From: a virus
Strand: one strand, 5' to 3'
DNA: 64,000 nt
IMG/VR virus record: IMGVR_UViG_3300033998_000095
Span: 1 to 64,000 of that record
The notes beneath the pieces are model-generated. The model was not told the origin of the DNA, made no database searches, and saw only the letters and a list, made by a program, of their open reading frames with translations. How positions within the stretch are numbered: the first letter of the stretch is position 1; the number at the start of each line of letters is the position of its first letter. The translations under genes and the position numbers were made by a program. Below, in pieces: positions 21,379-52,464 of the stretch.

Positions 21379-23115
21379 TTATTTCTTATTTTCCTCTGCT
21401 TGTGTTCCTTTAAATACATCTCTTCCAACAAAGATATCAATTAAAATATTCCACAATGCTTTAAAAAATTGAATTTGAGCATAAATTAATACTGGTATAC
21501 TTGCTTTTACTACTAAAGGCTGACCAAGCGTTACTCCAAGTGAAAACAGAACATTTGCAGTTACAGCTGCAAAAAAGTTTTTAACTACACTTAAAGCTGT
21601 TTTTTTAGTTGATTGGAATAATGTTGGTATCCTCTTTTTGAGACTATTATAATGTTTGTCAATTTTAGATAAATTTTTGACTAATAAGTTAGAACTAATA
21701 AAACCTATAGCAATATTAAAAGCAAATTTATTTAATCTCTTATCATTAGCATAAACTGGGTTCTTTTTTGCCTCTGTTAAAATAAAAGTATATAACATCT
21801 TTGCATAGCTTAATATTGTATTTAAGATCGTCTCAGCTGGCTTCTGATCTTCAGGTAAAATATCAACTAACATCTGAAAAGCAATTTCTATACTATCTTC
21901 AGTGGGTGGTAAAGAATTGATTTGATTTACTAATGAGTCAGCTTCTGGACTCTGCGTCTTTTTAAGAATACTATCAAGTTGTTTTAAAGCATTTACTGTA
22001 GATGGTTTGGCTTCAATTACTCTACTTTCTTCTGTCTCAATAGGCTCTAAAGAATTTAATAAATCTGAAAATGTTAATGCCAAGAATGTGATTCTTTGCA
22101 CCTCATGATCATAGAATACAACAGTTGGATTTTTATCTTTCTTATTCTTGTACAGGAAACAAAAATAATTGCCATACCCGTCACTGCCAAATGGGAATAG
22201 AAGACCGTTGCTTTCTTTTTCAAATAATCGATAATAAATTAAAACGAAATCTTCATCCTCTTTATTTAGACTATGTAAATGATCAATTTCAGTTTCGATA
22301 TCAGGCAGTCCAGAGGGGATAGGTGTTCCTCCATTATGTTGTAATACACAGACAACGTAGTCATCTGGCAACATCAAACCAGTTTCTTTCTCTACAAATA
22401 GCACATCATCCATCGTTATAGGACTACTAAGATTTATCCACTTCAATGGTTTGGCTTCAATTACTCTACTTTCTTCTGTCTCAATAGGCTCACTTGTATT
22501 GGCCATACCTTCAATCATACTATATTGTGCAGCATATATACTGAAAGCAGCGTGTATTAATGCTGGAATTGCTGTGAATACTGTTTCTGTTTTACCCAAT
22601 ACAGCAGCAGCTGAAAGAGTTAAATCTGTAATTTGTTTTCCAACAATAATATCTAATACTTTCTCAGCATCTTCTTCAGAATCAAACAGATTAGGTATCT
22701 GCTTAGCCATAAATTGATAACGTTTTTCAACATCTTTTGCATCACCAGCAAAGAGATTTGAGCATGCAAATCCAAGTGCCATAAATAGTGCTAATTTGTC
22801 AATACTTTCATTATCTAATGCTTCATTTTCACTTTTTACAAGATCAAAAAGTTTTTCACATTTAGACAATATAGCATCTAATATCTCCTGAGCAGGTGCT
22901 TTATCTTCAGGTAGATTATCAAGCAACATATTAATACCTATATTAATATTGCTTTTAGTTGGTTTTAAAGAATCCAAACGTTTAAATAAAGTAGCTCCTT
23001 CAGAACTCTTTGTTTTGGATATAATTTTATTAATATTCTTCAGTAGATTACTTTCAGCTTCTTCTATTAGCTTATGTGCTTCTTTTATTCGTACAAATTT
23101 AGATGTTTGATTCAT
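21379..23115 (-). CDS. putative internal head polyprotein: two paralogous helical domains flanking an SMI1/KNR4 (SUKH) domain
   Basis: SUKH motifs LPDDY..NGG, FPFGSDGYGNYFCF, VVFYDHE, TFSDLL (22048-22445); duplicated linker EPIETEESRVIEAKP. Confidence 0.75.
   Translation of the reverse strand: MNQTSKFVRIKEAHKLIEEAESNLLKNINKIISKTKSSEGATLFKRLDSLKPTKSNINIGINMLLDNLPEDKAPAQEILDAILSKCEKLFDLVKSENEALDNESIDKLALFMALGFACSNLFAGDAKDVEKRYQFMAKQIPNLFDSEEDAEKVLDIIVGKQITDLTLSAAAVLGKTETVFTAIPALIHAAFSIYAAQYSMIEGMANTSEPIETEESRVIEAKPLKWINLSSPITMDDVLFVEKETGLMLPDDYVVCVLQHNGGTPIPSGLPDIETEIDHLHSLNKEDEDFVLIYYRLFEKESNGLLFPFGSDGYGNYFCFLYKNKKDKNPTVVFYDHEVQRITFLALTFSDLLNSLEPIETEESRVIEAKPSTVNALKQLDSILKKTQSPEADSLVNQINSLPPTEDSIEIAFQMLVDILPEDQKPAETILNTILSYAKMLYTFILTEAKKNPVYANDKRLNKFAFNIAIGFISSNLLVKNLSKIDKHYNSLKKRIPTLFQSTKKTALSVVKNFFAAVTANVLFSLGVTLGQPLVVKASIPVLIYAQIQFFKALWNILIDIFVGRDVFKGTQAEENKK
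22002..22491. repeat. exact 46-bp direct repeat (22002-22047 and 22446-22491) flanking the SUKH domain
   Basis: atggtttggcttcaattactctactttcttctgtctcaataggctc twice, 444 bp apart (in frame). Confidence 0.95.
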
Positions 23116-23243: not shown

Positions 23244-24867
23244 CATAAAGTGCAAGAAGACACCCACCTCTATAGGTGGGGGATGAATTGCACCTATAGT
23301 ACACAAAATCCTTTTCTAAACATATAAGGCTTAACTAAACTTGTTTTAACTGGTTTAGACAGTTCCACTAACCTAATATATTCTCCTTTGTTTTGTATGC
23401 CTTTAACGGTATACTTTTTACCATTAAAGATAACAATATCCTTAGGTTGGTAGAAATATCTTTGTTTGCGAATGTTTCTCCTTCCACTTGATTTTTTAAT
23501 TCCACGATACTTGCGAAAGCTTTCTTTGCTTAAATTCTTGTTTCGTGTTCTTCTGCCACAAAACAGTTCTTGTCCTGTTTTAATCAAATTATCTCTTATG
23601 TCGATATATTTTGCATCGTAGAATTTTTCAAGTGAACGATTATTTCGTCTGACTTGTTCAAAATAAATAGGTTCTATTCTTTGTTGACTATTACCACCTG
23701 CTATGCAAAATGCATCATTGTAGTGCGTCTTATCTAATTTAAGACTTATCCTTTTAGACTTAGTAATATATCCATAAGTATGACTACATTTTAATACATT
23801 AACTAATTTCCACCTTACAGTAGACATAAATGTTGCCTCTTTTAATGGCTTTTGTACAGGTTTCATTCCATATAGAATGTTGCCTTCTTTATGGTTTTTA
23901 GGTGTGTGGCATTTAGTGCAAAGTGTAATTAAGTTACTTGGTCTATCTGTTCTATCTTGTTTCCAATAGCCTATATGGTGTACTTCAAGTATGGTATCTT
24001 TTCTACCACATAGTTGACAGGTATAGTTATCCCTATACAGAACATATTCCCTAATATTCCAAAAGCCTTGTTGTTCACCTTGTTGATAGCCTTCACCTTC
24101 TACATTCGGATTTTTAAGTTTATGCGTATCAAAATTAGCTACTTCTATGACTATATTAGTTATAGGAAGTAGCTTTTTAAGGTACTCTATAAACCTAATA
24201 TGAGAGTCTAACTTATGCTTAATAGAAGGTGCAAGCCAACCTTCCTTTTTAGAAGATACTCTATTAGTGAATCGTGGTTTTCTATATCTAAGTTTGCTAC
24301 GTCTAATTCTACGATACATTAATCTTTCTTTAAGTAGTTCTGATATATCACCTCTTAGTTTAACTTCACCAGATATAAGTTCTTTCTTTTCAGTTATAGC
24401 TGAAAAACCTATATGGTTATACCCACTATCTATACCAAGTGTGATATTTTGTGTATAGGTAGTAGTATCATATAAAAGCTGAATAGTAAAAGGTTTAACT
24501 TTAACTACTTTAGCAAGTCCTTGCTTAAGTAGTCTTCTAACTTTACCATGCCTATTAGTTGGCATTAAAGGCTTTCCTTCAATAGATAGTACATATACCA
24601 CTTTAATAACCTCCTTGAAAGGTAAGTCAGGCTAAAGCCTGTAGGTCCACATCGCCAATGTTATATGGGGTTTTGTATGGCAGCAGCACTTCTCCTACCC
24701 TCAGAGATGTTTAACCACTGCCCTCAGAGCATAGGACTTGTGGAGCATCCTATGGTGACTATATATTCCCATATAACGTAGCTAAAGAGTAATCCTTTTA
24801 GCTTAGGCTAATCAACCGAGCTTGTTTTTCTACAAGCCCCCACCTCTATAGGTGGTGGGTAGTTGAC
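23244..24867 (-). mobile_element. IS200/IS605-family IscB element (non-autonomous, no tnpA)
   Basis: subterminal hairpins ccacctctataggtgg at 23264 and 24840; GTCAAC end at 24867; removing 23244-24867 restores the helicase end GAA GAA GAA TAA. Confidence 0.85.
23294..24601 (-). CDS. iscB: IscB RNA-guided endonuclease
   Basis: PLMP domain, RuvC-I GIDSG, Arg-rich bridge helix, RuvC-II IVIEV, HNH (CQLC..EVHH..NLITLCTKCH), RuvC-III HYNDA. Confidence 0.95.
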   Translation of the reverse strand: MVYVLSIEGKPLMPTNRHGKVRRLLKQGLAKVVKVKPFTIQLLYDTTTYTQNITLGIDSGYNHIGFSAITEKKELISGEVKLRGDISELLKERLMYRRIRRSKLRYRKPRFTNRVSSKKEGWLAPSIKHKLDSHIRFIEYLKKLLPITNIVIEVANFDTHKLKNPNVEGEGYQQGEQQGFWNIREYVLYRDNYTCQLCGRKDTILEVHHIGYWKQDRTDRPSNLITLCTKCHTPKNHKEGNILYGMKPVQKPLKEATFMSTVRWKLVNVLKCSHTYGYITKSKRISLKLDKTHYNDAFCIAGGNSQQRIEPIYFEQVRRNNRSLEKFYDAKYIDIRDNLIKTGQELFCGRRTRNKNLSKESFRKYRGIKKSSGRRNIRKQRYFYQPKDIVIFNGKKYTVKGIQNKGEYIRLVELSKPVKTSLVKPYMFRKGFCVL

Positions 24868-24883
24868 TCTTCTTCTATTTCTA
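24612..24883 (-). ncRNA. IscB omegaRNA (scaffold ~24612-24867; 5' guide ~24868-24883 TAGAAATAGAAGAAGA)
   Basis: structured non-coding region upstream of iscB beginning GTCAACTACCC..GGGGCTTG with GTTGATTAGCCT, CTACGTT, CTCTGAG, GGTTAAACA and AACATTGGCGATG blocks typical of IscB omegaRNAs. Confidence 0.8.
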
Positions 24884-26759
24884 CTGGTGGTTGTTTACTA
24901 CCCATAACAATAGAACTCATCTGTGCAGACCATTGCATTATATCATGAGTATGTGTGAGTATATTTGGTTTCTTTGTATTTAATAAAGCTTTCCATATAT
25001 ATACTTCTGTATCTTGACCAATTCTATGTATCCTATCAACAGCTTGCTGAAAATCAGCATCCCTATAAGGTAAATCTAAAAATATAGCTTGATTAGCTTC
25101 AATTAATGTAACACCAGTTGATAGCTTCTTTAATGATGCTATAAGCACATCTATGTCATCATATAATCTGAATTGCTTTAAAACTTCATCACTATCTTTA
25201 GTATCTCCAGTTACTACCACATGTTTAACACCTTTTGCATTTAATAAATTTGAAGTATTAGAGATAGTATCTTTAAATGTAGACCAAATAATGGTTTTCT
25301 TTTCTGCTTTATTAATAAGAGCAATTATAACATCTAAGTTTTCAGACACCATATCATTTATAGCTTGAATCTTACGTTTTGTATATATTTGACCCATTGC
25401 TTCTCCTAATGCTTTCATAATAGCATTAGTGATAGATACTTTTGTTTGTCTTAATAAATCTCTAAGACGTTTATCATATGTATTCAACCAATTAAAACAT
25501 ACATTGTAGATGAAATTAAATCTATTTATATCATCTATCTTTTTAATATCATAATTACGTATCATCTTCTTCATAAACTTAGCTTCTTTACGAGTTATAA
25601 CATTATTATTCTCACAATATTCTATTACTATATCAAAATCCTTTATATATTTATCAGTATTCTTAACAAGTTCATTAAAACGTTTCTCCATGTAATCATG
25701 CATATCTTTTACAATATTATCTATTAAATATTTTTCAGGATTTTTTATCTTTAGCCATAAATTAGCTATATGCTTTTCTGGTAAATTTAGAACTTCTGAT
25801 TTCAGCTTTCTGTCCATCATTATACTTAATCTATATTGCAAAATGTCATATGCAAATTCTCTATATTTCTTATATACGTTCATAAAAAGTCTCATAGCTT
25901 CTTTATCAAATAATGGATCCAATAAAGCTATTATTGGGATAAGCTCTGAAGCCAATGCCTTTATTGGTGTACCTGATAATGCCATAATATCATTTATATG
26001 CTTTGCATTTCTTAATGCTAAGATATCACCAGCACGTTTAGTATCCATATATCTAATATTATGAGATTCATCTATAATCATAGTAATATTTCCATCCAAT
26101 AAATAATCAACAGCTTTGTTTACTCTCTCATAATTACTTATTACGTAATCATAATCTGTTGAAACTGGATCTTCATCTACATATGCAATTTTGTATTTGG
26201 TTTTAAATACCTTACCAATTTCTTTTCTCCACACATCAACTACTGACTTAGGGCATATTATAAATACCTGTTTATTATCTATTACTTTAGCAGTAGCCAG
26301 AGCTGTAAATGTTTTACCAAGACCTTGTTCAAAAGCTAATATAGCCCCTCTTAAGTTAAGTTTGACTTTAGATTCAAAATAACTCTCAATAAATTCTTTC
26401 TGATATGGTTTTAATTCCCAGTTTAAATCATCAAGTTTAGAATAATCTATTGGAGGAATTGATTTGGTAACACTTATCAGCCAAGTATTATTTATTAATT
26501 GCTGAGCAATATTTATATAATTACGTTTTCTAAACTTATTTGCTAATTGCTCAAAAAGGTAATATACTTCTGGTGCAAAGAACTTATGAAATTGAAGAAT
26601 AGCTCTATGTTTAAACCATCTAGTCTTAATATGACCAAATAGGCCTATTTCATCCATTATGTTGGTTCCATATAATCTAACCATGTGCTTCATAAACATT
26701 TTATAATGTATATTATATACGTAGATGTATTTTTCATCTTCAGTTACATGAACAGCCAC
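24846..26759 (-). CDS. SNF2-family helicase/ATPase
   Basis: EQGLGKT, IIDESH, LSGTP, STGVTL, QAVDRIHRIGQ motifs; final residues STTHHL* come from the IscB element. Confidence 0.9.
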   Translation of the reverse strand: MAVHVTEDEKYIYVYNIHYKMFMKHMVRLYGTNIMDEIGLFGHIKTRWFKHRAILQFHKFFAPEVYYLFEQLANKFRKRNYINIAQQLINNTWLISVTKSIPPIDYSKLDDLNWELKPYQKEFIESYFESKVKLNLRGAILAFEQGLGKTFTALATAKVIDNKQVFIICPKSVVDVWRKEIGKVFKTKYKIAYVDEDPVSTDYDYVISNYERVNKAVDYLLDGNITMIIDESHNIRYMDTKRAGDILALRNAKHINDIMALSGTPIKALASELIPIIALLDPLFDKEAMRLFMNVYKKYREFAYDILQYRLSIMMDRKLKSEVLNLPEKHIANLWLKIKNPEKYLIDNIVKDMHDYMEKRFNELVKNTDKYIKDFDIVIEYCENNNVITRKEAKFMKKMIRNYDIKKIDDINRFNFIYNVCFNWLNTYDKRLRDLLRQTKVSITNAIMKALGEAMGQIYTKRKIQAINDMVSENLDVIIALINKAEKKTIIWSTFKDTISNTSNLLNAKGVKHVVVTGDTKDSDEVLKQFRLYDDIDVLIASLKKLSTGVTLIEANQAIFLDLPYRDADFQQAVDRIHRIGQDTEVYIWKALLNTKKPNILTHTHDIMQWSAQMSSIVMGSKQPPVEIEEESTTHHL

Positions 26760-49096: not shown

Positions 49097-51148
49097 TTAA
49101 GGAGTCTCTGGAGCTGGTGTTTCTTCTCCTCCAAACAGATCTGATGAGAGTTCTCCACCACCCATGTCTTCTTCATTGGATTCTTCTCTTGATTTCTCCA
49201 TCTGTTCTAGATAGAATTCATCAAAATCATATTCTGGTAAGAATCTCCTTAATATTTTCTCTTCAGGTACATTCATTTCTTTAAGTGAATTGTATATATC
49301 TCTAATTTCAGTGTACATCTTTGACAATGCCTCAGTAATAATGCCTCTTGGTGGCATAAACGTTAGAGATATATTATGATAATTACTATTTAGATCATCA
49401 TCATCTGAATGTACTAATATATATATTTTGTGCATTAACTCTGTAAAGTATTCAGAAAACATCTTTTGATATCTGATAACTGATCTCGCAAATAACATGC
49501 TTTCTTGTGCTAGGGTTGCTTTGGTTGAATTGAATTCTTCTATACCTAGATAAGATGGTGGAATTTCAATACCAGTTAATATATTCTTTATGAGTGTTGT
49601 ATCTTCACCCTGTCTGGTATCTGAATAGGATCCCATATCAAGTGTATCCATTTCAACATATCTTTTTCCATCTTTAGCAGGTAAATAATAATCTTCAAAT
49701 GTAGACACAATAGAAGGAATAGTTTCTATATCATTTAAATCAGATACCTTTACTTCTCTACTCTTAACTGCTCTTTTAACATTTTCTATTCTACTAGATG
49801 CATCTCTAGTACCTGAAACATCTACAGTAAATATCATATGCTTTCCTGCTCTAGAAAGCATATATATCGTAGATGATACTAATCTAGCAAGATACAGTCT
49901 AAATATAAACTCAAGATCTGCAAATATAGACTCTCCATATACTTCATCTTTAAGACTTATATTCTTAAAATGAATCATATTGCTTTCAGGCACATATCTT
50001 ACATTGACAGATTTAATAGAACTAATTTTATTATAACCTTTTATAATATTAATTAAAACATCCTTTATATCATCAGATAATGAATTTACATCAATTTGTT
50101 TGAGATATGAAGAAATAACAGCATACACTTTGTTTATAATAGTATTAAATGCCTCTTTTTCAGAGTCCATCTGCATCTTAGAAAAGGATCCTACATTACC
50201 CATTCTTGGACCTGCTGCTTCTTGAGCACTTGTTTCACTATCAATGACTAAATAACCAAGGCATATATTATAACGTTGTATCTTAATTACATTATGTGGT
50301 TGATGAAATATTAACGAAACATCATCATATGTTATATCATCTTTATTATTTTTTGCATCATCTTTATTTGATTCATCTTCAGTGATAAGATAATCTTCTG
50401 TGATGTTATCATCATTTTTATATTCTCTTAATTCCTTTGATACTAAATCATTTTCTATTAAATTATGTCTGCGAATATGCTTTATATCCTCTGTTTCTAA
50501 TAACTTGACTGATATCTGTTTATCTTTAAATAACTTATTATTTATTTCAGATAGATTGATCTTTTCCTCTCTTATGACACCACCAAACACATTCTCCATT
50601 TCACGCTGTCTGGTAGTTAATTCAACAAAGAAATCACCAAATAATAAAGTATTCTGAATAATATAATCAGCTTTCTTATCTATAGCTAATACTTTCATAG
50701 CATTTCTAAATTCTTGTTTAAGAAGATCTATTTCAGTCTCTATACCTTCAATATCATCCAACTCAGATATTACATTCAAAGATCGTTTATTAATATCATC
50801 AGGTGAAAGAATATTATCAGCCCATATACGTAAAGCTTTTCCTAATATTGGTATTCTATCTTTAACAGCAAGTATATTCTTATAACTATCTAATCTTTTC
50901 TTAGATGGTGTAAATTGAGAATATCCAGCATTAAATGAACTCAATACATTGTCTATAACATCTGATTCTTTTCCATTGTTAGATTTATTAACAACAGCAT
51001 TAACCAAATCAATCCAATCTTTTTTCCTATAGGGACTTAATAAATCAGCACTATTAACATCATCTAGATGACGTTCGAAGTCAATAGTTAGATCTCCACT
51101 TTTGTTAATACTATATAGTAAATTTCTAAATGTATCTTTAATAGACAA
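49097..51148 (-). CDS. portal protein (T4 gp20-like)
   Basis: TLLFGDFF, YGESIF, IYMLSRA, FTVDV, EDYYLP, IPPSYL, FARSVIRYQ; acidic tail. Confidence 0.9.
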   Translation of the reverse strand: MSIKDTFRNLLYSINKSGDLTIDFERHLDDVNSADLLSPYRKKDWIDLVNAVVNKSNNGKESDVIDNVLSSFNAGYSQFTPSKKRLDSYKNILAVKDRIPILGKALRIWADNILSPDDINKRSLNVISELDDIEGIETEIDLLKQEFRNAMKVLAIDKKADYIIQNTLLFGDFFVELTTRQREMENVFGGVIREEKINLSEINNKLFKDKQISVKLLETEDIKHIRRHNLIENDLVSKELREYKNDDNITEDYLITEDESNKDDAKNNKDDITYDDVSLIFHQPHNVIKIQRYNICLGYLVIDSETSAQEAAGPRMGNVGSFSKMQMDSEKEAFNTIINKVYAVISSYLKQIDVNSLSDDIKDVLINIIKGYNKISSIKSVNVRYVPESNMIHFKNISLKDEVYGESIFADLEFIFRLYLARLVSSTIYMLSRAGKHMIFTVDVSGTRDASSRIENVKRAVKSREVKVSDLNDIETIPSIVSTFEDYYLPAKDGKRYVEMDTLDMGSYSDTRQGEDTTLIKNILTGIEIPPSYLGIEEFNSTKATLAQESMLFARSVIRYQKMFSEYFTELMHKIYILVHSDDDDLNSNYHNISLTFMPPRGIITEALSKMYTEIRDIYNSLKEMNVPEEKILRRFLPEYDFDEFYLEQMEKSREESNEEDMGGGELSSDLFGGEETPAPETP

Positions 51149-51180
51149 TTAATAATACACCTCTCAGTGTGAAATCAATC

Positions 51181-51555
51181 TTATCTAATAACGTTATAAA
51201 TCATATTCAAATGTCTATATATTTCTCTAGATATAAAATCAAAGTATTGATCCTTGGTCATAAATACCAAGGATTCTCTTTGTAATTTTCTAGGTATATT
51301 TTTCACAATATATGCAAATGCTTCTTTGTATATCATAAAGTATTCTTCAGTATTTAAATCCAAATTATTAACAAGTGCATCATGTACACCTTTTTCTTGC
51401 ATGAAAAAATCTATCAATGATGATATTGTATCTGAAAGCATAAAAAGAGTATTTCTCATTGATTTAATTCTATTTCGCTCTCTTATTGATGACAATAATC
51501 TAGACAACATGAATGTTAAGTATAATAACATAAAAATTATAATATATTTTATCAT
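51181..51555 (-). CDS. small membrane protein
   Basis: N-terminal TM helix IIIFMLLYLTFMLS; SD. Confidence 0.55.
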   Translation of the reverse strand: MIKYIIIFMLLYLTFMLSRLLSSIRERNRIKSMRNTLFMLSDTISSLIDFFMQEKGVHDALVNNLDLNTEEYFMIYKEAFAYIVKNIPRKLQRESLVFMTKDQYFDFISREIYRHLNMIYNVIR

Positions 51556-51584
51556 TTATGAAAAACTCCTCTCTCTTATTATCA

Positions 51585-51714
51585 TAATCAATCGAGTTGC
51601 AATGATGTGAACTACCCCCACCTATAGAGGTGGTGGCTTCGTGGTCAATGCTCCCATCGGAGCAAGATTACCCACGCTCAAAGGGCTGTTCCTTCCCCAG
51701 CTTTACCAATTACA
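51585..51714 (-). ncRNA. candidate stand-alone TnpB-type omegaRNA (scaffold ~51607-51714; 3' guide ATCATTGCAACTCGAT...)
   Basis: GGGGAAGGAACAGCCC..GAGCGTGGGTAA..GCTCCGATGGGAGC..CCACGAAGCCACC..GTAGTTCAC architecture like Firmicute tnpB right-end RNAs. Confidence 0.6.
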
Positions 51715-51800
51715 TGGCTAATTTTAGCAGGTTCTTTGATGCAGTCAAGCGACATTCATCACCCACTTATAGAAGTGGGCGACTTCTGTCGTTAATTAGG
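51607..51800 (-). mobile_element. protein-less IS200/IS605 mini-element (PATE-like) carrying a TnpB-type omegaRNA
   Basis: minus strand: ATTAA|CCTAATTAACGACAGAAGTCGCCCACTTCTATAAGTGGG (left-end hairpin) ... GAAGCCACCACCTCTATAGGTGGGGGTAGTTCAC (right-end hairpin, TCAC end); core hairpin identical to that of the IscB element. Confidence 0.8.
51721..51748 (-). promoter_or_regulatory. sigmaA-type promoter inside the mini-element
   Basis: TTGACT-16 nt-TAAAAT with extended -10 TG (TGcTAAAAT). Confidence 0.55.
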
Positions 51801-51856
51801 TTAATTTGACATTGCAACTCGATTGATTACAAATGAGAATATTTTATTTTGTTTTA

Positions 51857-52165
51857 CTATTCATTTTCAGAACATTCATCATCAGAATAGTCTTCAGCCC
51901 CACCTCTTACATGTTTCTTAGTGGTAGCATAGAAAAACACAAGATCTTTCTTATTAAGTAATAAGACGTCTTGCTCTCTGGTTGGTATATCAAGCAACAC
52001 AAAATCAGTTTGACTCTCTGCTATCTTTTCAGCTATACGATGAATGTCTTGTTTGGTAACATTCTCTGCAGTGAGAACTGATTTGGTGTTATTAATATAC
52101 CCAAATACCAGCCTAATAGAACACGTTTTTTCCTTAACCTGATTTTCCATAATTATACCCTCCAA
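51857..52165 (-). CDS. hypothetical protein
   Basis: GGAGG SD suggests the start at MENQVK (about 52150). Confidence 0.6.
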   Translation of the reverse strand: MEGIIMENQVKEKTCSIRLVFGYINNTKSVLTAENVTKQDIHRIAEKIAESQTDFVLLDIPTREQDVLLLNKKDLVFFYATTKKHVRGGAEDYSDDECSENE

Positions 52166-52239
52166 TATTCTTAGAATGATTTTATCTTTTCTTTTTGATT
52201 ATAAATGACATTTTGTGAAAAATCAAGTAGTTAATAAAA

Positions 52240-52464
52240 CTACTTTCCAATTTCTTCACTTTCTGGTTGTAATGATTTAGATTTCTTACCAGTGCTTTCT
52301 TGAGTATTATCTATAATCTCATATTGTACTCCTTGCACATCCAAAAGCAATAGCTGGTGTTCATATAATTCAACAATAGCTGGAGTTCTAAGGGAGTTAA
52401 ATCCAAATGCATTTAATGTGCCAGGAGATTTTATATTGACAAGTACCTTCTTTCTAGTATACAT
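52240..52464 (-). CDS. hypothetical small protein
   Basis: SD AAGGAG, 74 aa. Confidence 0.6.
   Translation of the reverse strand: MYTRKKVLVNIKSPGTLNAFGFNSLRTPAIVELYEHQLLLLDVQGVQYEIIDNTQESTGKKSKSLQPESEEIGK

What the first reader, a model, noticed from the sequence alone, without database searches (positions are those of the whole stretch)
51607..51800. Protein-less omegaRNA mini-transposon with its own promoter
Seen: a ~195-bp element with both IS200/IS605 end hairpins and no ORF. It has an extended -10/-35 promoter (51721-51748) directly upstream of a ~108-nt TnpB-type scaffold that ends at TTCAC, followed by flanking DNA as the guide (ATCATTGCAACTCGATTG). In the reconstructed empty site, ATTAA lies immediately 5' of the guide match, as a TnpB TAM would. 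Inference: a mobile guide-RNA cassette that borrows TnpA and TnpB in trans, from the host or elsewhere in the phage, to cut element-free phage alleles.
Basis: partly seen in the sequence, partly recalled or inferred. Interest (0 to 1): 0.75.

Follow-up and report, generated by a model that had tools for sequence, protein, structure and literature searches.

The report
Gene-less TnpB guide-RNA mini-transposon in phage
The flagged 194 bases are a real, protein-less miniature of an IS605-type jumping gene, precisely inserted in a large digester phage; it keeps both transposon ends, a promoter and a complete TnpB guide-RNA scaffold, but elements of this kind are already described, so it is a well-documented new example, not a new system.

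Summary
Observation confirmed to the base. Window 51607-51800 is a 194-bp insertion with no target duplication. It lies 3' of ATTAA on the minus strand, in the 11-nt loop of a perfect 20-bp hairpin. Two sister phage contigs and contigs of three other sequencing runs carry the exact empty site.

It is an internal-deletion derivative of a 1690-bp tnpA+tnpB IS605-type element. Both ends are identical to copies in another phage contig (L024) and in a Tissierellaceae-labelled contig.

The minus strand keeps the last 10 tnpB codons and the full omegaRNA scaffold. In TnpB-linked relatives that scaffold lies at the tnpB 3' end, and 22 of its 28 predicted pairs show compensatory changes. Each copy is followed by a different flank, which serves as the guide.

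The proposed promoter (TTGACT-16-TGcTAAAAT) is a hybrid. Its -35 is the ancestral left-end -35; its -10 is recruited from the tnpB 3' end.

No tnpB or tnpA lies in the 112-kb contig, which instead carries at least 3 IscB elements with similar end hairpins. The family abounds in Caloramator and Tissierellia genomes.

Use of the RNA by a trans TnpB is plausible but unshown. The TAM is off-consensus (ATTAA against TTTAA), this copy is a singleton, and there is no RNA evidence for the filled allele.

omegaRNA-bearing PATEs and stand-alone omegaRNAs are published, and this scan has found similar minis in many other phages.

The parts
51607..51800 (-). Whole mini-transposon (194 bp). The top strand is the window minus strand, with the left end (LE) at 51800 and the right end (RE) at 51607.
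   Evidence: Empty sites in L042 and L043. Contigs that skip exactly 51607-51800 in X3, X8 and X17.
51801..51805 (-). Target motif (TAM), ATTAA on the minus strand, abutting the LE. The family consensus is TTTAA.
   Evidence: TTTAA in 31 of 44 elements; the window is the only ATTAA.
51750..51791 (-). LE subterminal hairpin (core 51762-51778), 21 nt from the LE tip.
   Evidence: I6, D3. Identical to the LE of L024.
51743..51748 (-). -35 box TTGACT. This is the ancestral LE promoter -35 (TTGACA at LE position 53); its last base comes from the deletion junction.
51721..51726 (-). -10 box TAAAAT preceded by TG, recruited from the tnpB 3' coding end.
   Evidence: The homologous ...CTGCTAAAATTAGCC lies in the full-length tnpB.
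51710..51742 (-). Remnant of tnpB: the last 10 codons (ASKNLLKLAM) plus the stop. The deletion junction is at 51743/51744.
   Evidence: Comparison with the TnpB of L024, 6192-7262.
51607..51722 (-). TnpB-type omegaRNA scaffold with five conserved helices, ending ...GGGGGUAGUUCAC at the RE tip.
   Evidence: CM R1 gives 153 bits. The same model hits directly at the 3' end of tnpB in relatives. Covariation.
51615..51636 (-). RE subterminal hairpin, 8 nt from the RE tip. It is also helix 5 of the RNA.
   Evidence: I23.
51591..51606 (-). Guide segment, ATCATTGCAACTCGAT on the minus strand: phage flank outside the element.
   Evidence: Flanks differ in every copy. It matches the empty alleles exactly.
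51585..51604 (.). Left arm of the phage's own 20-bp intergenic hairpin. It overlaps the guide.
   Evidence: I1, 100% complementary.
51810..51829 (.). Right arm of the same hairpin. The element sits in its 11-nt loop.
23250..24867 (-). Separate IscB insertion sequence with similar end hairpins. It contains iscB (23294-24601) and a HEARO/IscB omegaRNA (24641-24867). It is context, not part of the mini.

Best explanation
Shown. The stretch is a 194-bp non-autonomous IS200/IS605 element of the PATE kind. It arose from a 1690-bp tnpA+tnpB IS605-type element by an internal deletion of about 1.5 kb. It lies 3' of ATTAA in the single-stranded loop of a 20-bp intergenic hairpin, between two co-oriented genes of a large phage with a T4-like portal. 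It keeps the left end with its hairpin and -35 box, the last 10 codons of tnpB, the whole conserved omegaRNA scaffold and the right end.

Inferred. Transcription could start at the hybrid promoter, near 51714, or come by read-through from the phage operon. Either gives a minus-strand RNA whose 3' end runs into the phage flank, ATCATTGCAACTCGAT. A compatible TnpB supplied in trans could load this RNA. Possible sources are host IS copies, the unsequenced part of the phage, or a co-infecting phage. That TnpB would then cut the element-free allele (ATTAA + guide match), and a TnpA in trans could excise or move the element.

My odds: identity and anatomy about 0.95; the RNA being made about 0.6; its actual use by a trans TnpB on empty phage alleles about 0.35.
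For: Insertion: it is precise and lacks a target duplication, and empty alleles exist.

Parentage: LE 56 of 56 and RE segment 137 of 138 bases identical to the 1690-bp elements in L024 and L074. L024 encodes Y1_Tnp TnpA and a TnpB with OrfB_IS605, TNB and HTH domains.

RNA type: the conserved block continues into the tnpB 3' end in full-length relatives. CM R1 hits always start at the tnpB stop, on the same strand.

Structure: 95% of cells are paired against 36-54% when partners are slid, 22 of 28 pairs show compensatory changes, and 0 of 500 shuffles reach this. The window copy scores highest, 153 bits.

Guides: they differ in all 29 distinct copies.

Promoter: the LE promoter is conserved at position 53 in 16 of 18 full-length elements and in 7 of 23 distinct minis at 10 or more of 12 matches.

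Mobility of the family: 23 distinct minis of 154-226 bp with different flanks occur in phage contigs and Caloramator chromosomes.

Possible trans sources: the family is abundant in Caloramator and Tissierellia genomes.

Guide accessibility: a promoter-derived RNA leaves the guide free, whereas read-through RNA locks it in a 23-bp stem.
Against: - No tnpB or tnpA lies in the 112-kb contig, which is estimated 41% complete.
- The exact deletion junction occurs nowhere else in IMG/VR or the JGI metagenomes, so this copy may never have moved as a mini.
- ATTAA is off the family's TTTAA, so TnpB may not accept it.
- RNA-library contigs show only the empty allele.
- No listed contig bridges the junction.
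- The sequence is identical to the parent, so conservation of the scaffold in this copy says nothing about selection.
- The promoter match alone is not above background in this AT-rich DNA.
- The alignment used for covariation was fitted to the model.
Confidence: 0.8

Rival explanations
1. Inert relic. A full-length IS605-type element inserted here and then lost its interior in place. The RNA scaffold and promoter-like boxes are leftovers that no TnpB uses, and the element is neutral junk that will decay or be lost.
For: It is a singleton junction. No TnpB or TnpA lies in the contig. The TAM is off-consensus. There is no RNA evidence for the filled allele. It is 100% identical to the parent, so it has had no time under selection. 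RM378 holds a clearly decayed copy without a left end.
Against: Both ends and all five RNA helices are intact. Independent mini lineages in the family keep at least 95 nt of scaffold and have multiplied. The -35 and -10 spacing after the deletion is near-consensus with a TG extension. Compatible elements are abundant in the likely host pool.
Confidence: 0.4
2. IscB-type omegaRNA. The element is read on the + strand, with the guide at 51591-51606 as its 5' end, and serves the phage's own IscB nucleases.
For: The phage has at least 3 IscB elements whose RE hairpin and tip (GTCAACTACCC...) resemble the mini's + strand start. R1 gives a weak hit on the IscB RE.
Against: Rfam HEARO finds nothing in 51000-52400, even at E up to 10, whereas it scores 129-160 bits on the three true IscB leaders. 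Beyond the first ~45 nt the mini is homologous to the tnpB 3' end, on the other strand.
Confidence: 0.02
3. Assembly artefact. The phage really carries a full-length IS, or none, at this site, and the 194-bp form is a mis-join across a high-copy repeat.
For: Element-internal depth is 100- to 1000-fold above the flanks. All listed contig pieces stop at 51742-51744, and no other copy of the junction was found.
Against: Contigs of run X1 bridge both outer junctions with 0 differences. The two parental sequences share no overlap at the junction that a de Bruijn assembler could mis-join (inference).
Confidence: 0.05
4. Exapted regulator. The insertion matters to the phage because it splits the intergenic 20-bp hairpin, or because it adds a promoter for the downstream gene 51181-51555, and not because of any guide-RNA role.
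For: It sits in the hairpin loop between two co-oriented genes, and its promoter points at the downstream gene.
Against: Sister phages do without it. There is no sign of fixation or of change after insertion.
Confidence: 0.05

Closest known systems
PATE-like minimal IS200/IS605 elements that encode omegaRNAs (Geobacillus stearothermophilus ISGst family; Meers et al. 2023, PMC10055086)
   Same: Protein-less, with both subterminal hairpin ends. It keeps an omegaRNA that would need a TnpB in trans, shares ends with co-resident TnpB and IscB elements, and inserts next to a TAM without duplication.
   Different: It sits in a phage, not a bacterial chromosome. No tnpB or tnpA is present in the sequenced 112 kb. 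Its promoter is a hybrid made at the deletion junction. It lies in a hairpin loop. It is a singleton copy at an off-consensus TAM.
Stand-alone omegaRNAs of OMEGA systems, shown to work in trans with compatible effectors (Altae-Tran et al. 2021, as summarised in PMC10691335)
   Same: A mobilised guide-RNA locus lacking both effector and transposase.
   Different: In the published cases the effector is in the same genome. Here the only effectors in the held genome are IscB, which does not match this RNA.
Autonomous 1690-bp IS605-type element (tnpA+tnpB) of L024 (IMGVR_UViG_3300042257_000205) and L074
   Same: The left end, the promoter -35, the tnpB 3' end, the omegaRNA and the right end are identical. 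It has a TTTAA-type target.
   Different: The window copy lacks about 1.5 kb: the -10 box, tnpA and all but 10 codons of tnpB.
Transposon non-restorative homing between co-infecting phages or plasmids (concept in PMC13565253, Table 1)
   Same: The proposed role is to cut the transposon-free allele of a co-infecting genome.
   Different: Here the cassette would carry only the guide, and nothing has been shown experimentally.

Membership tests
IS200/IS605 non-autonomous element (PATE) | Similar subterminal imperfect palindromes at both ends, asymmetrically placed, with no terminal inverted repeats | tested here: met
   Hairpins at 51615-51636 (8 nt from the RE tip) and 51762-51778 (21 nt from the LE tip), 88% alike.
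IS200/IS605 non-autonomous element (PATE) | Insertion 3' of a short conserved target motif, without target-site duplication, and with a scarless empty site | tested here: met
   Empty alleles in L042 and L043, and contigs that skip 194 bases. TTTAA or ATTAA lies next to the LE.
IS200/IS605 non-autonomous element (PATE) | No protein-coding gene, and ends shared with an autonomous element that encodes a Y1 HUH TnpA | tested here: met
   No conserved ORF. L024 has identical ends plus Y1_Tnp, E 5.7e-46.
IS200/IS605 non-autonomous element (PATE) | Mobilised in trans, seen as several copies of the same mini at different sites | tested here: inconclusive
   This junction is unique. Other mini lineages of the family have several copies with different flanks.
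TnpB omegaRNA (reRNA) | The homologous sequence overlaps the tnpB 3' end and runs to the right end on the tnpB strand | tested here: met
   R1 hits start at the tnpB stop in relatives with 47-94% TnpB identity.
TnpB omegaRNA (reRNA) | A variable guide formed by the DNA just outside the right end | tested here: met
   All 29 distinct copies have different 3' flanks after ...GTAGTTCAC.
TnpB omegaRNA (reRNA) | Conserved secondary structure supported by compensatory changes | tested here: met
   22 of 28 pairs show changes on both sides, and 95% of cells are paired against 36-54% when slid. Caveat: the alignment was fitted to the model.
TnpB omegaRNA (reRNA) | It is transcribed, bound by a TnpB, and directs TAM-dependent DNA cleavage | not testable with these tools
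   The RNA-library contigs laid carry only the empty allele. No TnpB lies in the contig.
IscB omegaRNA (Rfam HEARO, RF02033) | A match to the HEARO covariance model, upstream of iscB | tested here: not met
   No hit at E up to 10 in 51000-52400. The phage's true IscB leaders score 129-160 bits.

The most novel reading that the evidence does not exclude
The phage carries only a guide. A promoter-driven omegaRNA, freed from the flanking hairpin by its internal start site, would hijack TnpB made by the host's many IS copies. That TnpB would then cleave co-infecting sister phages that lack the insertion. This would be a nuclease-less, guide-only homing or marker-exclusion device.
Probability: 0.1. 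Interest if true: 0.7.

Novelty: new member of a known kind. Interest (0 to 1): 0.3.

Why it matters
This is a clean natural example. Its boundaries are known to the base, the parent element is identified, and the empty allele is documented in several samples. It shows that IS605-type transposons shed their genes inside phage genomes and leave a promoter plus guide-RNA cassette aimed at the uninterrupted phage allele.

If a host or co-infecting TnpB loads that RNA, the cassette would bias phage inheritance at almost no coding cost. That is testable with the L024 TnpB and TnpA and the sequences given here.

As it stands, it adds an example and some detail to a phenomenon already described in bacteria and seen repeatedly in this scan. 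The detail is the hybrid promoter, the hairpin-loop target and the co-residence with IscB elements.

Tried and rejected
- Rfam scan of the locus at E up to 10: only chance snoRNA-like hits, and no HEARO.
- IscB-type reading on the + strand: considered because the phage's IscB elements share the RE hairpin, then rejected.
- TnpB and TnpA protein searches of the whole 112-kb record: nothing. CM R1 on the whole record found no second TnpB-type scaffold, only IscB right ends at 20-31 bits.
- Search for the exact deletion junction in IMG/VR and the JGI metagenomes: none.
- First TAM assignment, TTAAC, read from conserved ...GTTAA flanks: corrected by the empty site to (T/A)TTAA, with C as the first base of the LE.
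- Pfam and PHROGs on the two flanking ORFs: no family.
- Read laying gave no strand, start or level information, because all runs are kept as contigs. The 57-nt X3 contig over the left junction is too short to count as a filled allele there.
- Host assignment from L074 is weak. It is a 2.1-kb contig that is almost entirely the IS.
- The core 20-mer used to collect the first 113 copies makes that block invariant by selection. The covariation test was therefore repeated on loci collected through the TnpB protein.

Full report
**1. What is there**

The window is the first 64 kb of a 112-kb IMG/VR phage record, estimated 41% complete. It carries a T4-like portal gene at 49097-51148. Between two minus-strand ORFs (51181-51555 and 51857-52165) lies a GC-rich island.

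The island has two similar hairpins, CCCACCTATAGAGGTGG and CCCACTTATAGAAGTGG, at 51615-51636 and 51762-51778. Its flanks form a perfect 20-nt inverted repeat, 51585-51604 with 51810-51829. That 19-mer occurs nowhere else in the window.

**2. Exact boundaries**

Scanning IMG/VR for one arm of the repeat found two sister contigs, L042 and L043. There the arms are only 11 nt apart...GCAATG-ATTTAATTTGA-CATTGC.... Aligned with the window, the insert is exactly 51607-51800 (194 bp), with no duplicated target. No alternative placement of the boundaries fits.

Independently, contigs of three other public runs (X3 DNA; X8 and X17 RNA libraries) join 51606 to 51801, "skips 194, GT..GG". Run X1 bridges both outer junctions of the filled form with 0 differences.

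On the minus strand, the empty site reads TCAAATTAA|ATCATTGCAACTCGAT. The element therefore lies 3' of ATTAA. As single-stranded DNA, the site is a 20-bp stem with the target in its 11-nt loop.

**3. Which family, which strand**

A 20-mer from the core (51673-51692) occurs in 37 IMG/VR stretches and 76 stretches of GTDB genomes. Most of the genome copies are in Caloramator sp. mosi_1, C. australicus, C. proteoclasticus and Tissierellia MAGs.

In many copies the conserved block runs straight into the 3' end of an opposite-strand ORF. That ORF ends ...SSQICSKCGYKN...WECPNCGAIHDRDINASKNLLKLAM*.

In L024 the full element is 1690 bp:
- a TTTAA target;
- the left end with its hairpin;
- the promoter TTGACA-17-TATAAT;
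- tnpA (137 aa; Y1_Tnp, E 5.7e-46);
- tnpB (356 aa; OrfB_IS605, Cas12f1-like TNB and HTH_OrfB_IS605 domains);
- the right end.

The window element is identical to L024, and to L074, in 56 of 56 LE bases and 137 of 138 RE-side bases. The one RE-side difference is the junction base. The window element is therefore an internal-deletion derivative. It keeps the LE through TTGAC, then the last 10 tnpB codons, the stop and everything to the RE tip ...GGGGGTAGTTCAC.

**4. The RNA**

An alignment of 29 distinct copies shows that every copy has a different flank after GTTCAC. RNAalifold gives 28 pairs.

Those copies were collected with an exact core 20-mer, so I also collected loci through the TnpB protein (42 loci, 32-100% identity). 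I searched them with covariance model R1. All hits on those loci except one of the two on L164 lie on the tnpB strand, and in the close relatives they begin at the tnpB stop.

On that alignment:
- 95% of cells pair, against 36-54% when partners are slid;
- 22 of 28 pairs show compensatory changes;
- no shuffle of 500 reaches the observed values.

The caveat is that the alignment is fitted to the model. The window copy has the top score (153 bits), and all five helices lie downstream of the predicted start. "Too truncated to fold" is therefore refuted. Rfam has no matching family.

**5. The promoter**

The scan finds TTGACT-16-TAAAAT with a TG extension at 51748-51721(-). The AT-rich surroundings give many such sites, 10 against 6.5 in shuffles. 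The stronger argument is comparative.

A TTGACA or TTGATA box sits at LE position 53 in 16 of 18 full-length elements and in 7 of 23 distinct minis, in each case with a good -10. In the window the -35 is that ancestral box. The -10 is the ...CTGCTAAAAT of the tnpB 3' end, brought to a 16-nt spacing by the deletion.

Read-through from the co-oriented phage operon is a second possible source of the RNA. However, such RNA is predicted to lock the guide into a 23-bp stem with the upstream hairpin arm (-102.8 kcal/mol, z -7.65). An RNA starting near 51714 leaves the guide essentially free. This point is inference.

**6. Partners**

No TnpB or TnpA homologue lies in the 112 kb, and R1 finds no second TnpB-type scaffold there.

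Instead the phage carries three intact IscB genes (RRXRR + HNH). Each is preceded by a HEARO/IscB omegaRNA scoring 129-160 bits, and there is a HEARO-like fragment at the contig end. Their end hairpins are about 90% like the mini's. That fits mobilisation by one TnpA type, as reported for Geobacillus (PMC10055086).

HEARO does not match the mini, so IscB is not its partner. A trans TnpB would have to come from the host, the missing part of the phage, or a co-infecting phage such as L024. The family has dozens of copies in Caloramator and Tissierellia.

**7. Family picture**

Of the 44 elements with both ends, sizes fall into three classes:
- minis of 154-226 bp, 23 distinct, found in phage contigs and in Caloramator chromosomes, several lineages with multiple copies at different sites;
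- tnpB-only elements of 1276-1473 bp;
- tnpA+tnpB elements of 1689-1690 bp.

All the minis keep at least 95 nt of scaffold. This is more than I would expect TnpA to need, judging from IS608 (my recollection, not checked here), and so it hints at selection on the RNA.

The TAM is TTTAA in 31 of 44 elements; most of the rest look like off-by-one calls caused by indels. The window is the only ATTAA. The window's own junction is unique in IMG/VR and the JGI metagenomes.

**8. Mechanism and odds**

Shown: the identity, the boundaries, the parentage, an intact scaffold, the existence of the target allele, and a guide that matches it.

Inferred: transcription from the hybrid promoter, loading by a trans TnpB, cutting of ATTAA-flanked empty alleles and repair from the filled genome, and trans-mobilisation by TnpA.

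I put use of the RNA by a TnpB at about 0.35. The main rival is an inert, recent relic, at about 0.4. An assembly artefact (0.05), an IscB-type RNA (0.02) and a regulatory exaptation (0.05) are unlikely.

**9. Comparison and novelty**

[quoted passage not shown] Stand-alone omegaRNAs that work in trans are summarised in PMC10691335. Homing on co-infecting phages is discussed in PMC13565253.

This scan has already reported similar guide-RNA minis in many other phage genomes. The present case is therefore a new member of a known kind.

Its particular points are:
- the hybrid promoter created by the deletion;
- insertion in a hairpin loop;
- the absence of any tnpB, alongside several IscB elements;
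- the off-consensus TAM.

Noticed in passing
window 23250-24867; G000 63837-65065 (starts at window 63837, runs past the window end); G000 88319-89573; G000 ~111880-112006: The phage carries at least three intact IscB genes (RRXRR+HNH; 43-48% identical to one another). Each is preceded by a HEARO/IscB omegaRNA scoring 129-160 bits. There is also a HEARO-like fragment at the contig end. The first element abuts the stop of an SNF2-type helicase gene (24846-26759).
   Followed up: partly
L001:3001-3130 (Rhodothermus phage RM378, NC_004735.1 128214-128343): The isolated phage RM378 holds a copy of the same TnpB-type omegaRNA and right end, 79% identical and without a left end, with compensatory changes in one stem. 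GenBank annotates it as a 27-aa hypothetical protein (Rm378p143), next to the sigma-factor gene.
   Followed up: partly
L015:57-330 (IMGVR_UViG_3300010327_000840): One copy of the element has a tRNA-Thr(tgt) gene (122-197, opposite strand) lodged between the scaffold core and the tnpB-end segment.
   Followed up: partly
L030:5560-5900 (IMGVR_UViG_3300010269_000012): A TnpB-type right end and scaffold is followed within about 250 nt by a sequence that looks like a reversed HEARO/IscB leader. This suggests nested or abutting TnpB-type and IscB-type elements.
   Followed up: no
window 51585-51829; L043:9118-9166: The uninterrupted phage allele has a perfect 20-bp stem with an 11-nt loop between two co-oriented small genes. 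No U-tract follows it on the coding strand, and its function is unknown. The insertion turns it into a stem that encloses 205 nt.
   Followed up: partly
window 21379-23115: The ORF just downstream of the IscB element's left end carries an SMI1/KNR4 (SUKH) domain (Pfam E 4.5e-17).
   Followed up: no
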